Below are positions 2,453 through 13,196 of a stretch of 15,216 bases of DNA, in pieces (position 1 is the first letter of the stretch; each line of letters begins with the position of its first letter). A program made the position numbers and the translations under genes. The notes below the pieces were generated by a model. The model was given only the letters and a program-made list of their open reading frames with translations, was not told the DNA's origin and did no database searches. Source of the stretch: Candidatus Odinarchaeia archaeon (GTDB lineage Archaea > Asgardarchaeota > Odinarchaeia > Odinarchaeales > Odinarchaeaceae); assembly GCA_029856525.1 (NCBI GenBank), contig JAHQXC010000028.1, positions 1-15,216 of the forward strand, written 5' to 3'.

Positions 2453-3823
2453 ATGAGCCTTAACATATTAGATAAAACAGTAAAAATTCTGCGAGAATAC
2501 AAGCTTTGCAGTAATTGTTTAGGTAGAATGTTCGGTATGCTAGGAACAGGGTTAACTAATAAGGAGAGGGGTGAAGCGTTAATAATCGCTTTAATGATGC
2601 TTGCAGATGAAGAGATGAAGAATGAAGCTGCGGATAAGCTAAACGAGATAATCGAGGCTTTAAAAAATGTTGCCGGATTCAAAACACTCTATAAATTTCT
2701 ATCGGAGAGACTTAGTTTAAAACAGAGTGAAAACGTTTGCTACATTTGCGAAAATATTTTTGATCGACTTGAAGAATTAGTAAAGAAAAGTCTAAGTGAA
2801 ATCAACTCCTATGAGTTCAAAACCTTCTTAGTCGGCACGAATATAGATGAGAAGATAATTGAAAGAGAAGACAATTTCAGAGCGAAATTCAGTTTAACAT
2901 GGGGGGAATCTATTAAAAGCGAATTAAACAGGGAGATAGGTAAAATAATAAAAAAGCATTTCCCCGATGTGGAAACCAGTTTCGAAAACCCTCACATAAT
3001 AATCGAGTATAGCATTCCTAGCTTCAATTACAAGATAAACGTCAACCCTGTTTTCATATATGGAAGATATAGAAAATTAGTTAGAGGTATACCTCAAACC
3101 AAGTGGATTTGTAAAAGCTGCAAGGGAACTGGATGTGAAAGATGCGGTTTTAAAGGTAGAATGTATGATATCTCCGTGGAAGAGTTAATTTCTAAGCCTG
3201 TTATAGAGAAACTTAACGGAGTTAACGCGAAATTTCACGGCGCGGGAAGAGAGGATATAGATGCGATAATGACAGGTTTCGGGAGACCGTTCGTATTAGA
3301 GGTGAAAGGTGTTAAAAAAAGATTCATAGAATTAGAAGAACTGAAATCAGAGATCAATAATTACGCTAACGGTAAAGTTGAAGTCTCCGACTTAAAATGG
3401 ACTTCTAGAAATATGATTCGAAAAATTAAAGCACTCTCAAAGATTACAAGGAAAAAATACAGGGCTATTGTCCAATTAAATAATAATATAACAGACGACA
3501 AGATTATTGAAGCTGAAAAATATCTTTCAAACACTATTATTCAACAAAGAACACCTAAGCGAGTAGCTCATAGGAGAAGTGATAAACTTAGAGAAAAGCA
3601 AGTTTACAGCTTAAAAATAACAAGACTATCAGAGGATAAACTTGAAGTAATCGTTGACTGTCAAGGAGGACTCTATGTGAAAGAGCTTGTCAGCGGAGAC
3701 GACGGTAGAACTAAACCAAGCCTATCTGAGATATTAGGGGTTGAAGCGAAATGCATTCAATTAGACGTATTAGACGTTGATCTACCAGATGACGTGGTTA
3801 AAACAGGAATTCTTGATAAGTGA
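2453..3823 (+). CDS. pus10: tRNA pseudouridine(54/55) synthase Pus10
   Basis: N-terminal CxxC...CxxC, THUMP-like region, GRYRKLVRGIPQT, catalytic GAGREDID, QRTPKRVAHRR and GGLYVKELVSGDDGRT motifs. SD AGGTGA lies upstream. Confidence 0.97.
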   Translation: MSLNILDKTVKILREYKLCSNCLGRMFGMLGTGLTNKERGEALIIALMMLADEEMKNEAADKLNEIIEALKNVAGFKTLYKFLSERLSLKQSENVCYICENIFDRLEELVKKSLSEINSYEFKTFLVGTNIDEKIIEREDNFRAKFSLTWGESIKSELNREIGKIIKKHFPDVETSFENPHIIIEYSIPSFNYKINVNPVFIYGRYRKLVRGIPQTKWICKSCKGTGCERCGFKGRMYDISVEELISKPVIEKLNGVNAKFHGAGREDIDAIMTGFGRPFVLEVKGVKKRFIELEELKSEINNYANGKVEVSDLKWTSRNMIRKIKALSKITRKKYRAIVQLNNNITDDKIIEAEKYLSNTIIQQRTPKRVAHRRSDKLREKQVYSLKITRLSEDKLEVIVDCQGGLYVKELVSGDDGRTKPSLSEILGVEAKCIQLDVLDVDLPDDVVKTGILDK

Positions 3824-3835
3824 GCTACTCCTCGA

Positions 3836-3992
3836 CTAAAGTCGGGAGCTTCCAGCGTTCGTCTGAGGCTTTACACCTTCAGTTACACGTGCTGGTTCGC
3901 GGGGCTCACAGCTCCGCCATCCTGTGCCTCTCATTAAGGCATGGGCTATGTTTATGCATGCGTTCCGGTCTTCGGTTGTAGATTAACCCACA
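3836..3992 (-). pseudogene. tnpB: tnpB C-terminal remnant (end of zinc finger and RuvC-III), +1 frameshift
   Basis: Reads CGLIYNR (3992-3972), one extra A (3971), then DRNACINIA...GSSRL-stop. This matches the TnpB CGxxxxRDxNAxxNI motif. Confidence 0.8.
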
Positions 3993-9021: not shown

Positions 9022-9201
9022 GTGAACTACCCCTCCTTATCGGATGGGGTTTCCTGCTTCAATGATGAAGCCTGCCGGTATTTTCGACCGGTAGAGGCCC
9101 CGTCTCAGCCCGCATCTCTATCCTTTTTTACACTTGAAAACCGTAAATACTTTTCAGCTTTCAACCCCTAGCTTTCGCAGGGTGACTTCCAGCCGATAAA
9201 G
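9022..9201 (-). mobile_element. Element E2: 180-bp non-coding IS200/IS605-type mini-element (LE, promoter, about 100-nt scaffold, RE)
   Basis: RE reads GAAGCAGGAAA-CCCC-A-TCC-GATAA-GGA-GGGG-TAGTTCAC. LE reads TTTAA|CTTTATCGGCTGGAAG plus a CCCTGC-GAAA-GC-T-AGGG hairpin. Colinear with E3 end to end. The LE boundary is uncertain by about 3 nt. Confidence 0.88.
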
Positions 9202-9501
9202 TTAAAAGCCGAGTATTTTTCTAGCTTCAGGGGACATCATTTCAGGAGACCATGGGGGATCCCAAACCACTTGAACCTCTACTTTACCGATACCTTTAAT
9301 ATTACTCAATTTATTACGAACCTCGTTAGCTATTAAAGAGTGTAACGGACATCCTGGAGCTGTTAAAGTCATTTTCACATAAACATCCTTGCCGTCTTTA
9401 ATCTGAACATCGTATATTAAACCTAAATCAACAATATTAACAGGTATTTCGGGATCATAACAGGTTTTTAAAACTTTTATTACTTCCTCTTTTGAAATCA
9501 T
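9202..9501 (-). CDS. DUF59/MIP18 (SufT/PaaD-like) Fe-S cluster assembly protein
   Basis: 99 aa with DPEIPVNIVDLGLIY, TAPGCP and PPWSPEMM. SD GGTGGT at 9514-9509. Confidence 0.93.
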   Translation of the reverse strand: MISKEEVIKVLKTCYDPEIPVNIVDLGLIYDVQIKDGKDVYVKMTLTAPGCPLHSLIANEVRNKLSNIKGIGKVEVQVVWDPPWSPEMMSPEARKILGF

Positions 9502-9544
9502 TTAAGCAACCACCGTTAATTTTAAGTTATTTTATAGTAGCTTA

Positions 9545-9764
9545 GTGAATCACTCCAGCTCTCATAAACGGCTTCCGCTTCATAGAGAAGACTCACCGCG
9601 AGCGCAACCCGGAGGGAGTTGAATGCTACTCTTCGCCGGCTTCTCAGAGCTAACACAGCTCTAATAATCCTCTATGAGAGTGGAGCTCTCACAAAATATA
9701 ATGTAACCACGTCTTTATAAGAGTATCAGCCCCAAGACTGAGATGGGGATTCTAGCCTATAAAG
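9545..9764 (-). mobile_element. Element E4: 220-bp IS200/IS605-type mini-element with a remodelled RNA scaffold
   Basis: LE TTTAAA|CTTTATAGGCTAGAAT-CCCCA..TGGGG-CTGA is homologous to the E2/E3 LE. TTATAAAG at 9720-9713. RE-like TGAAGCGGAAGCC...GGAG-TGATTCAC. GTGAGTC (9596-9590) is complementary to the terminal GATTCAC (9551-9545). Confidence 0.72.
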
Positions 9765-9974
9765 TTTAAATATTGCAGCCGCAGCCTCAAAGAAAATTAG
9801 ATTAAGCGCATAGAATAACTCTGAAGCTTCTATATTATACTAATAAACTCCGACAAAGTTAAATATAGTAATGCATAACGTTAAGAATACTTAACTTGAG
9901 TGAAAAATGGAATGCTCGGTTAAATCACTATTATATTTCAAAAAACTCTAGTAGTCAATGCAGGTGAATTTAAT

Positions 9975-10505
9975 ATGCCTAAAAGACCTGGACATTGTTA
10001 TAGCAAGCTAGAGCCTAGACCATACGTGAAAAAAAAGACACGTAAGAAGAAAGAGCTAGTTAGAGGGGTCCCGGACAGTAAGATTCAAGTATTCGAGATG
10101 GGTGCGAAAGGGGTAAAATTCCCTGTTTATGTTCATCTCGTAGCTAAAGAAGCTGGACAGATAAGACATTTCGCGCTTGAAGCCGCCCGTGTCTCAGCTA
10201 ACCGTCTTCTAGAGAAGCAGGCAGTAAGCAAAGAGAGCTATCATTTGAAGGTTAGAGTTTATCCTCACCATGTTTTACGTGAAAATAAAATGATGGCTTT
10301 TGCTGGAGCGGATAGACTTCAAGACGGTATGAGAAGAGCTTTCGGTAAACCTATAGGAACAGCTGCGAGGGTTAGAGCTAACCAGGAGATTATTACTATA
10401 GGAGTTGTCCCACAGCTTCTAGAAACCGCTAAATTAGCTCTTAAGAGAGCTGCGGCGAAGATCCCTCTCCCATGCTCGATAGTAGTTACATCAAGTAACG
10501 ATTAA
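9975..10505 (+). CDS. rpl10e: 50S ribosomal protein L10e/L16 (uL16)
   Basis: RGVPDSKI, IRHFALEAARV, RVYPHHVLRENK and ADRLQDGMRRAFGKPIGTAARV motifs. SD AGGTGA. Confidence 0.97.
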   Translation: MPKRPGHCYSKLEPRPYVKKKTRKKKELVRGVPDSKIQVFEMGAKGVKFPVYVHLVAKEAGQIRHFALEAARVSANRLLEKQAVSKESYHLKVRVYPHHVLRENKMMAFAGADRLQDGMRRAFGKPIGTAARVRANQEIITIGVVPQLLETAKLALKRAAAKIPLPCSIVVTSSND

Positions 10506-13020: not shown

Positions 13021-13196
13021 GTGAACTACCCTTATCGGAAGGGGGTTTCCTGTTTTAATGATGAAGCTTACTGGTGTGTTTCGCCCAGTAGAGGCTCCGT
13101 CTCAGCCCCGCATCTTTATCTTTTTTGAAGATTTGGAATTATAAATATCTTCTGGCTTCAGCCTCCAGCTTTAGCAGGGGCTTCCCGCCGATGAAG
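13021..13196 (-). mobile_element. Element E3: 176-bp sister of E2 with a shortened RE hairpin
   Basis: LE TTTAA|CTTCATCGGCGGGAAG-CCCCTGC-TAAA-GC-TGGAGG-CTGA; TATTTATA at 13147-13140; RE GGAAACCCCCTTCCGATAAGGGTAGTTCAC. Aligns to E2 over its full length. Confidence 0.88.

What the first reader, a model, noticed from the sequence alone, without database searches (positions are those of the whole stretch)
9545..9764. E4: remodelled reRNA-like fold that lost the RE hairpin but keeps a 7-bp terminal pseudoknot
Seen in sequence: E4 has an E2/E3-type LE and an RE-like tail (TGAAGC-GGAAG-CC...GGAG-TGAT-TCAC), but its subterminal RE hairpin is reduced to about 3 bp. That arm instead pairs over 13 bp with the predicted 5' end (9685-9673 with 9566-9553, one bulge). 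Other helices are ATAGAGGA/TTCTCTAT (9675-9668/9589-9582), the hairpin AGAGCT/AGCTCT (9662-9646) and GAGT/ACTC. GTGAGTC (9596-9590) can pair with the terminal GATTCAC (9551-9545). A TGAGAGCT direct repeat (9691-9684 and 9564-9557) allows an alternative 5' hairpin. Inference: loss of the TnpA-binding hairpin with retention of the promoter, the fold and the 3'-end pseudoknot is what a domesticated, immobile guide or regulatory RNA would look like. The two folds could act as a switch.
Basis: partly seen in the sequence, partly recalled or inferred. Interest (0 to 1): 0.8.

Follow-up and report, generated by a model that had tools for sequence, protein, structure and literature searches.

The report
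Degenerate solo IS200/IS605 mini-element
E4 is a one-off, species-specific remnant of a protein-less mini-transposon of the IS200/IS605 kind, sitting just upstream of an iron-sulfur assembly gene. Its long RNA hairpin is real, but nothing shows it has become a domesticated guide or regulatory RNA.

Summary
E4 (window 9545-9764, minus strand) is real and derives from an IS200/IS605-type element. Its left end aligns end to end with six other left ends in this 1.32 Mb archaeal MAG. Its last 39 nt match the right end of a sibling copy (C119) at 30/39.

Confirmed:
- The subterminal right-end hairpin is gone.
- The 5' and 3' ends of the predicted transcript pair in a roughly 21-bp helix (-31.1 kcal/mol against -13.2 +/- 4.0 for shuffles; 1 of 2000 as good).

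Not confirmed:
- The "7-bp pseudoknot" is 6 Watson-Crick pairs plus one G-U. It is matched or beaten in 24% of shuffles and has no conserved equivalent in the E2-type copies.
- "Keeps the fold" fails. Neither the E2-family profile nor a covariance model of the resident tnpB 3' end recognises the E4 body.

Against domestication: the body is single-copy and absent from the syntenic DUF59-L10e spacer of three congeners. It is also absent, by sequence and structure model, from all seven genomes of its class. Congeners lack the whole mini-element family. No RNA data exist.

Best reading: a young, immobilised, decaying PATE/MITE-type relic whose promoter probably still reads into DUF59. Earlier notes of this scan describe the same family elsewhere in this genome.

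The parts
9765..9770 (-). Flanking TTTAAA: the TAM-like target motif (TTTAA) that precedes every copy of the family
   Evidence: All ~29 family loci are preceded by TTTAA-C-TTTAT or TTTAA-C-TTCAT. Congener G003 has TTTAAATTTTAG at the aligned place without any element.
9722..9764 (-). Left end: CTTTAT start plus subterminal hairpin CCCCA(9748-9744)/TGGGG(9734-9730)
   Evidence: 17/20 identity to the E2 LE start, 0 of 500 shuffles as good. Aligns with six other LEs (A3). ssDNA hairpin predicted at -3.7 kcal/mol.
9701..9730 (-). Promoter module GCTGATACTCTTATAAAGA...TTACATTATA, with an archaeal TATA-like box at 9721-9713
   Evidence: TCTTATAAA is invariant in all 7 'type-2' LEs. 31/34 identity to C71:1732-1765, E 4.8e-7. 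Promoter function is inferred, not shown.
9666..9692 (-). 5' arm of the terminal helix. It starts at the predicted transcription start (about 28-31 nt after the TATA box) and contains the alternative local hairpin TGAGAG/CTCTCA
   Evidence: This segment is an insertion relative to sibling C119 in a global alignment.
9646..9662 (-). Hairpin AGAGCT-GTGTT-AGCTCT
   Evidence: Present in the MFE and centroid folds. The GAGCTGTG core is shared with the tnpB 3' region of E1/C93, but only as an 8-mer that is not significant.
9635..9650 (-). Mid-body block GCTCTGAGAAGCCGGC, colinear with the long variants of the family
   Evidence: 14/16 with C119 (4 of 1000 shuffles as good) and 12/13 with C16 (22 of 1000).
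9590..9596 (-). GTGAGTC, the proposed pseudoknot partner of the terminal GATTCAC
   Evidence: 6 Watson-Crick pairs plus 1 G-U, -7.0 kcal/mol. Chance level, 236 of 1000 shuffles.
9545..9582 (-). Right-end tail TGAAGCGGAAGCC...GGAGTGATTCAC. Homologous to the family RE but without the subterminal hairpin. 9575-9545 is also the 3' arm of the terminal helix
   Evidence: 30/39 with C119:846-885, 0 of 200 shuffles as good. No hairpin as ssDNA. Terminal duplex -31.1 kcal/mol.
9499..9544 (-). Downstream flank: 8 nt, then the native DUF59 TATA box (9536-9529), a GGTGG ribosome-binding site and the ATG (9501-9499). No run of five or more T lies between the E4 promoter and the ATG
   Evidence: Read directly from the sequence. 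The TATAAAT...GGTG arrangement is conserved in congeners. No terminator-like site was found (a bacterial-type scan only).

Best explanation
E4 is a solitary, immobilised and decaying non-autonomous derivative (PATE/MITE type) of the IS200/IS605-like mini-element family. That family has about 29 loci in this one archaeal species.

E4 entered the DUF59-L10e spacer after this species split from its congeners. It keeps the left end: the TTTAA flank, the CTTTAT start, the CCCCA/TGGGG hairpin and the family's TATA block. It also keeps a colinear mid-body block and the last roughly 39 nt of the right end. The right-end hairpin that a Y1 transposase (TnpA) would need has eroded.

About 30 nt complementary to the right-end tail now sit just after the predicted transcription start. 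The predicted 148-nt RNA therefore closes into a roughly 21-bp terminal helix.

Shown here: the homology, the single-copy and species-specific status, the loss of the hairpin, and the non-random helix.

Inferred: the left-end promoter still fires. Because no oligo-T stretch follows, transcription would run through the element into DUF59. The element would then act at most as an extra upstream promoter and structured leader, not as a selected guide or regulatory RNA.
For: - LE homology: a full-length alignment with six other LEs, with an invariant TATA block; 17/20 with E2's LE start; 31/34 with C71.
- RE tail: 30/39 with C119.
- Mid block: 14/16 with C119.
- No ORF of 60 aa or more in 9502-9974.
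- Family size: about 29 loci.
- RE hairpin absent in E4, and also in its sibling C119.
- E4 body is unique in the genome.
- E4 is absent from the syntenic spacers of G001-G003, which are 309-427 nt against 473 nt here.
- No hit with DNA or with covariance model R1 in the 7 genomes of the order/class.
- The family is absent from the congeners. They have no TnpA, and only G001 has broken TnpB remnants.
- The assembly is sound: an independent Logan contig spans 9084-10505 with no differences.
- PATEs that carry omega-RNA genes are already described (PMC10055086).
Against: - The terminal helix is far stronger than chance (1 of 2000). The overall fold z-score (-3.4 to -3.8) equals that of the genuine tnpB 3' region of E1/C93 (-3.5). 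Simple decay does not predict this.
- The helix has two G-U pairs and no A-C pairs.
- The predicted start and the element's exact last base pair with each other.
- The TATA block is intact.
- None of these can be weighed properly without orthologues or RNA data.
Confidence: 0.65

Rival explanations
1. E4 is a working stand-alone omega-RNA (reRNA) cassette. The LE promoter makes a scaffold ending at TTCAC plus about 16-20 nt of flank as guide. A resident TnpB (C93 type, 426 aa, or C44 type, 440 aa) binds it in trans. The pairing of the 3'-terminal nucleotides with a 5' segment plays the role of the omega-RNA pseudoknot.
For: - Two intact TnpB-like ORFs exist in the genome.
- PATEs often encode omega-RNAs used in trans (PMC10055086).
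- In ISDra2 omega-RNA, positions -5 to -3 pair with -103 to -105 (PMC10097598). E4's terminal UUCAC likewise pairs with a far-upstream GUGAG.
- The fold z-score matches that of the real tnpB 3' region.
Against: - Covariance model R2, built from the resident tnpB 3' end, scores E4 at 4.8 bits (E 1.8), and the match does not end at the element boundary. E2 and E3 score 9.4-9.8 bits and end exactly at TTCAC.
- The E2-family profile gives no hit on E4.
- No Rfam family matches.
- The architecture differs from both E1 and E2.
- The would-be guide has only a 15/16 match elsewhere (C14:33323), without a TTTAA-type flank.
Confidence: 0.12
2. E4 has been co-opted as a cis-regulatory unit of DUF59. It would provide an IS-borne upstream promoter plus a structured leader. 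The alternative folds (5' local hairpin against long terminal helix; terminal helix against GTGAGTC pairing) would modulate read-through or mRNA stability.
For: - E4 is co-oriented with DUF59 and ends 8 nt before its TATA box and 43 nt before its ATG.
- No T-run intervenes.
- Mutually exclusive helices exist.
Against: - The native DUF59 promoter and ribosome-binding site are intact and conserved in congeners that lack E4, so the gene does not need E4.
- The element is young.
- No ligand or protein sensor motif is known, and there is no expression evidence.
Confidence: 0.12
3. The transcribed body (9545-9692) is a separate piece with about 22-bp terminal inverted repeats. It would be either a small TIR-type insertion or an inverted duplication or template-switch product of the right-end tail, lodged next to a solo LE. 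In that case the 'fold' is a by-product of DNA rearrangement.
For: - The reverse complement of the 5' arm matches the RE tail at 13/14 in the core TATGAGAG(C)TGGAG; score 22 against 11.1 +/- 2.2, with a maximum of 20 in 1000 shuffles.
- It also ends in TCAC.
- The 5' arm is an insertion relative to C119.
- Solo LE fragments exist elsewhere, at C3, C10, C82 and C85.
Against: - No second copy of such a TIR element exists in the genome.
- There is no target-site duplication at 9545/9692.
- The arms are not perfect, with 2 G-U pairs and 3 bulged positions.
- The mid block and RE tail are colinear with C119.
Confidence: 0.1

Closest known systems
PATEs, the palindrome-associated transposable elements: protein-less IS200/IS605 derivatives (Haloquadratum, PMC3119063; Geobacillus, PMC10055086)
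   Same: No protein gene. IS200/IS605-type left and right ends without terminal inverted repeats or target duplications. A conserved flank motif on the left and a conserved terminal motif on the right. An RNA-coding segment next to the right end. Dependence on proteins supplied in trans.
   Different: E4 is a single copy with a unique body, has no right-end hairpin, and carries a long internal inverted repeat. No cognate TnpA for this family is in the 93%-complete assembly: the only Y1 transposase (C44) belongs to an IS608-like element with different ends.
TnpB omega-RNA / reRNA (ISDra2; PMC10097598)
   Same: Position at the right end with the 3' boundary at the element end. Long-range pairing of the last few scaffold nucleotides with an upstream segment. 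A strongly structured RNA of 100-150 nt.
   Different: No sequence or structure similarity to the resident tnpB 3' region or to any Rfam family. Driven by its own LE promoter rather than lying inside tnpB. The ~21-bp closing helix has no counterpart in the ISDra2 description read here.
The E2/E3-type mini-element family of the same genome (about 29 loci) and its sibling copy C119:675-885
   Same: LE start, TTTAA flank, TTCAC end, the mid block CTGAGAAGCC, and the RE tail (30/39 with C119).
   Different: The body between the promoter and the RE tail is not recognised by the family profile. The fold architecture differs. The promoter module is the 'type-2' version shared with C119, C93:3545, C33, C9, C44:7995-8137 and C71.
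TldR, the nuclease-dead TnpB-derived repressors with guide RNAs (PMC13622181; abstract only seen)
   Different: No evidence here of a dead TnpB, of conservation, or of a guide-target pair away from the element itself.

Membership tests
Non-autonomous IS200/IS605 derivative (PATE/MITE type) | No protein-coding gene inside the element | tested here: met
   No ORF of 60 aa or more in 9502-9974 on either strand. The three forward frames of E4 show no TnpB-like reading.
Non-autonomous IS200/IS605 derivative (PATE/MITE type) | Left end homologous to other copies, with a subterminal hairpin | tested here: met
   Alignment A3 with six other LEs. 17/20 with E2's LE start, 0 of 500 shuffles as good. CCCCA/TGGGG hairpin.
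Non-autonomous IS200/IS605 derivative (PATE/MITE type) | Right end with a subterminal hairpin resembling the left-end hairpin | tested here: not met
   The tail is homologous (30/39 with C119), but no hairpin forms: -2.3 kcal/mol, z -0.55, against E2's -6.7, z -2.95.
Non-autonomous IS200/IS605 derivative (PATE/MITE type) | Conserved flank motif on the left and conserved terminal motif on the right; no inverted terminal repeats of the element, no target duplication | tested here: met
   TTTAA(A) before CTTTAT, and a terminal TTCAC as in the other copies. The flanks differ on the two sides.
Non-autonomous IS200/IS605 derivative (PATE/MITE type) | Cognate Y1 transposase (TnpA) available in the genome | tested here: inconclusive
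   One Y1_Tnp gene only (C44). It belongs to an IS608-like element with TTTAC/GTCAA ends and different hairpins. The assembly is 93% complete in 127 contigs.
TnpB omega-RNA / reRNA | Scaffold similar to that encoded at the 3' end of a resident tnpB | tested here: not met
   Covariance model R2 (E1/C93 tnpB 3' end) scores E4 at 4.8 bits, E 1.8, rank 10, with the end not at 9545. Family profile A1 gives no hit.
TnpB omega-RNA / reRNA | Match to a curated RNA family | tested here: not met
   No Rfam match at gathering score. Only noise was returned at E up to 10 on 9480-9800.
TnpB omega-RNA / reRNA | Pseudoknot between the last scaffold nucleotides and an upstream segment | tested here: inconclusive
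   Two candidate partners for UUCAC exist (9692-9688 and 9596-9590). Complementarity of this size occurs in 24% of shuffles and is not conserved in the family. The ISDra2 precedent needs only 3-5 pairs.
TnpB omega-RNA / reRNA | Expressed, and bound by TnpB | not testable with these tools
   No RNA run holds the locus.
Domesticated / conserved non-coding RNA | Orthologues at the syntenic locus or elsewhere in related genomes | tested here: not met
   Absent from the DUF59-L10e spacer of G001-G003. No DNA hit and no R1 hit in the 7 genomes of the order/class. No hit in 15 archaeal IS loci.
Domesticated / conserved non-coding RNA | Covariation supporting the fold | not testable with these tools
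   Only one sequence exists. One DNA run, probably the source sample, holds it, without variants.

The most novel reading that the evidence does not exclude
E4 is a very recent exaptation caught early: an immobilised mini-transposon whose promoter-driven RNA has been reshaped. An inverted copy of its own right-end tail would turn it into a closed, stable ~150-nt RNA. That RNA would either load a resident TnpB with a guide lying over the DUF59 promoter, or act as a switchable leader for DUF59.
Probability: 0.1. Interest if true: 0.55.

Novelty: new member of a known kind. Interest (0 to 1): 0.25.

Why it matters
As read here, E4 is one more decaying protein-less IS200/IS605 derivative, of local interest only. 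It shows how such elements lose mobility: the right-end hairpin erodes while the left end and promoter survive. It also shows how they can leave an outward-reading promoter next to a housekeeping gene.

The wider context is more notable than E4 itself. About 29 promoter-carrying mini-elements sit in a 1.3 Mb archaeal genome, and congeners have none. If the unusually strong terminal helix proved to be selected, E4 would be a rare snapshot of the first step from transposon guide RNA to host RNA. Nothing found here demonstrates that.

Tried and rejected
- RNA evidence: no RNA holder listed for 9202-10505. Only one DNA run, probably the source sediment sample, holds it. Laying its contigs gave one contig over E4 with no variants and no joint.
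- Metagenome scan with the L10e protein returned only distant relatives (61% identity or less), so it gave no extra syntenic loci.
- E4 DNA against phage and plasmid collections: no match. The LE promoter pattern in viral contigs: no match.
- Covariance model R1 of the E4 fold: no hit in the 7 genomes of the order/class or in 15 archaeal loci carrying relatives of the C44 IS.
- I first took the C44 tnpA-tnpB element to be the autonomous parent because the E4-type LE lies just upstream of it. Comparison with copies in other archaea shows that IS starts about 140 nt further in, after TTTAC. The E4-type LE there is a separate mini-element, so this was rejected.
- TnpB-remnant reading of the E4 tail (MKRKPF... 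against C44's MKWKPK...): a 13/14-nt match, with 1 of 200 shuffles as good. It is not colinear with the element end, so I treat it as probably coincidental.
- 5' arm as a degenerate duplicate of the promoter module: 19/23 with C71, but 31 of 200 shuffles are as good. Not significant.
- Search for a trans target of the would-be guide: the best hit is 15/16 at C14:33323, without the family's flank motif.
- RNAalifold on 14 E2-type copies gave a weak consensus (covariation term -0.03), so no family fold was available to compare E4 with in detail.
- Complex prediction and the structure tools were not used, because the question concerns an RNA.

Full report
**Setting**

The window is contig C29 of a 1.32 Mb archaeal MAG (127 contigs, 38.5% GC, 93% complete). 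Pus10, L10e, DUF655 and UPF0146 mark it as archaeal. E4 lies on the minus strand in the 473-nt spacer between a DUF59/FeS_assembly_P gene (9501-9202, minus) and the L10e gene (9975-10505, plus). Only seven genomes represent its order and class in the reference set. Three of them are congeners.

**The observation**

- The 13-bp arm pairing (9685-9673 with 9566-9553) is real. It extends into a terminal helix of about 21 bp between 9692-9666 and 9575-9545.
- That helix has a duplex energy of -31.1 kcal/mol, against -13.2 +/- 4.0 for shuffles. One of 2000 shuffles is as good.
- The 148-156 nt RNA folds at -59.2 kcal/mol with z = -3.4 to -3.8. The opposite strand gives -47.5 kcal/mol, z = -2.7.
- The helix starts at GUGAG, about 28-31 nt after the TATA-like box, where an archaeal start site is expected. 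It closes on the element's very last bases, UUCAC.

The subterminal right-end hairpin is indeed missing. As ssDNA the last 40 nt fold at -2.3 kcal/mol (z -0.55), against -6.7 (z -2.95) for E2.

Two parts of the observation do not hold up:

- The '7-bp pseudoknot' GTGAGTC/GATTCAC is 6 Watson-Crick pairs plus one G-U (-7.0 kcal/mol). A complement of equal or better quality to the last 10 nt occurs in 236 of 1000 shuffles. No conserved counterpart exists in 14 E2-type copies. It also competes with the terminal helix for the same UUCAC.
- The ATAGAGGA/TTCTCTAT helix overlaps the long arm by three bases, so the listed helices are alternatives rather than one fold.

**What E4 is related to**

The E2/E3-type element is a repeat of about 180-190 nt with roughly 29 loci in this genome. 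Each copy follows TTTAA, starts CTTTAT, and carries a GC hairpin, a TATA box and a roughly 100-nt GC-rich segment. It ends in a second hairpin and TTCAC.

- E4's first 20 nt match E2's at 17/20, with 0 of 500 shuffles as good.
- E4's promoter module (GCTGATAnTCTTATAAA...TTACATTATAA) is a second type. It is shared with C119:675-885, C93:3500-3592, C33:21297-, C9:18461-, C44:7995-8137 and C71:1732-. The block TCTTATAAA is invariant in all seven.
- E4's last 39 nt align with the right end of C119 at 30/39 (score 31 against 15.5 +/- 2.1).
- A mid-body block, GCTCTGAGAAGCCGGC, matches C119 at 14/16 in colinear position (4 of 1000 shuffles as good).

C119 is therefore E4's closest sibling. It too lacks a right-end hairpin. 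The two share derived characters (GAGT.ATTCAC instead of GGGTAGTTCAC), so the erosion may predate their separation.

The rest of the E4 body is not recognisably related to anything:

- A profile HMM of 14 E2-type copies detects about 24 loci in the genome but not E4, even when E4 alone is searched.
- BLAST finds no second copy.
- Rfam has nothing.

**Link to IS200/IS605**

The genome has one Y1 transposase with a 440-aa TnpB (C44) and a 426-aa TnpB-only element (C93). E1 in this window is an internal deletion derivative of the C93 element.

The mini-element ends resemble the C93/E1 ends at both termini, 12/14 each with p about 0.02. A covariance model of the E1/C93 tnpB 3' region picks up E3 and E2 weakly (9.8 and 9.4 bits). 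Both matches end exactly at TTCAC. The same model scores E4 at only 4.8 bits (E 1.8), and that match does not end at the element boundary.

I first thought the C44 element was the autonomous parent, because an E4-type LE lies just upstream of its tnpA. Copies of that IS in Methanomethylicota, Bathyarchaeota, Archaeoglobales, Thermoprotei and Jordarchaeia have 80-86% TnpA identity. They show that the IS begins after TTTAC, about 140 nt further in, and ends in GTCAA, with different hairpins. The upstream piece is a separate mini-element. No cognate TnpA for the family is in the assembly.

**Age and conservation**

DUF59 and L10e are adjacent and divergent in all three congeners, with spacers of 309, 427 and 318 nt. 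Only the L10e-proximal part and the DUF59 TATA and ribosome-binding region align. E4 is not there.

- No E4 DNA match exists in any of the seven genomes of the order/class.
- A covariance model of the E4 fold finds nothing in them either.
- The E2 family is absent from the congeners. C119 used as a query finds nothing outside this genome.
- The congeners have no TnpA, and only G001 has broken TnpB remnants.

E4 is therefore a product of an IS burst specific to this species, and it is young. Covariation cannot be assessed with one sequence. An independent assembly of the one run that holds the locus reproduces it without differences, so it is not an assembly artefact.

**How it most likely works**

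Shown: the element has an intact LE and no RE hairpin. A TnpA-type transposase, which needs both hairpins on the same strand, should not be able to excise it.

Inferred: the LE TATA block is intact, and no run of T separates it from the DUF59 start codon 190 nt downstream. Transcription from E4 would therefore continue into DUF59. The native TATA box (9536-9529) and ribosome-binding site of DUF59 remain, as in congeners.

The roughly 21-bp closing helix comes from an inverted, imperfect copy of the right-end tail placed just after the start site. The core match is 13/14 (score 22 against 11.1 +/- 2.2). This segment is an insertion relative to C119.

Whether the helix is a rearrangement by-product or selected cannot be decided here. 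It has two G-U pairs, no A-C pairs and three bulged positions, so it is not a fresh perfect duplication. The overall z-score equals that of the genuine tnpB 3' region (-3.5). E2-type RNAs are only weakly structured (z -0.2 to -2.4).

**Comparison with known systems**

Protein-less IS200/IS605 derivatives (PATEs) that encode omega-RNAs used in trans by TnpB are described (PMC10055086). In ISDra2 omega-RNA the last scaffold nucleotides (-5 to -3) pair with -103 to -105 to form the pseudoknot (PMC10097598). Long-range pairing of E4's UUCAC is compatible with an omega-RNA-like layout, but complementarity of this size is also expected by chance.

E4 meets the PATE criteria except for the right-end hairpin, copy number and a cognate TnpA. 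It fails the tests for similarity to a resident omega-RNA scaffold and for conservation.

**Verdict**

E4 is a real, correctly located feature. It is a degenerate, single-copy member of a known kind of element. The domesticated-RNA reading is not supported, though it is not excluded (about 10%). The one thing left unexplained is the strength of the terminal helix.

Noticed in passing
G000 contig C44:7995-9877 (loci L024, L082): An IS608-like tnpA-tnpB element (flank TTTAC, end GTCAA) sits immediately after a short E4-type mini-element that ends ...GGAACCTTTAC. Its TnpA is 80-86% identical to copies in Methanomethylicota, Bathyarchaeota, Archaeoglobales, Thermoprotei and Jordarchaeia MAGs, which suggests horizontal spread among archaea.
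   Followed up: partly
window 9835-9915 (both strands): A block of about 60-80 nt upstream of L10e is conserved in three congeners although the rest of the spacer is not. It contains TTTAACTTTGTCGG, 13/14 identical to the flank plus LE start of the mini-element family. It may be the L10e promoter or leader, or a preferred or ancient target site.
   Followed up: no
G000 contig C71:1690-1945 (L002, L084): A locus with a promoter 31/34 identical to E4's. It is followed by a unique sequence of about 170 nt that ends in a T-run, without the TTTAA-CTTTAT start. The fold is not unusual (z -0.4). It is absent from congeners. An intron-sized tRNA hit and a sub-threshold 5S hit lie about 500-900 nt downstream.
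   Followed up: partly
window 9022-9764, minus strand: E4 (intact LE, dead RE), DUF59 and E2 (intact RE) are co-oriented and contiguous. In principle E4's LE and E2's RE could be used together as a composite unit carrying DUF59. The gene's position is ancestral, since the synteny holds in congeners, so no such move has happened.
   Followed up: no
window 3820-3960, minus strand (E1), and C93:27165-27305: The tnpB 3' region of the resident TnpB-only element is strongly structured (-50.4 kcal/mol, z -3.5). It has GUGAGC about 85-90 nt upstream that is complementary to the terminal GCUCAC, a layout like the ISDra2 pseudoknot.
   Followed up: partly
whole genome G000 against G001-G003: About 29 mini-element loci lie in 1.32 Mb, and many sit at contig ends (C35, C17, C31, C93, C9). 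The three congeners have none, no TnpA, and only broken TnpB remnants in G001. This points to a species-specific burst that probably fragments the assembly.
   Followed up: partly
window 9022-9136 and 13021-13151, minus strand: E2 and E3 are weakly recognised (9.4 and 9.8 bits) by a covariance model of the resident tnpB 3' end, with both matches ending exactly at TTCAC. This supports the view that the E2-type body is a shortened omega-RNA-like scaffold.
   Followed up: partly
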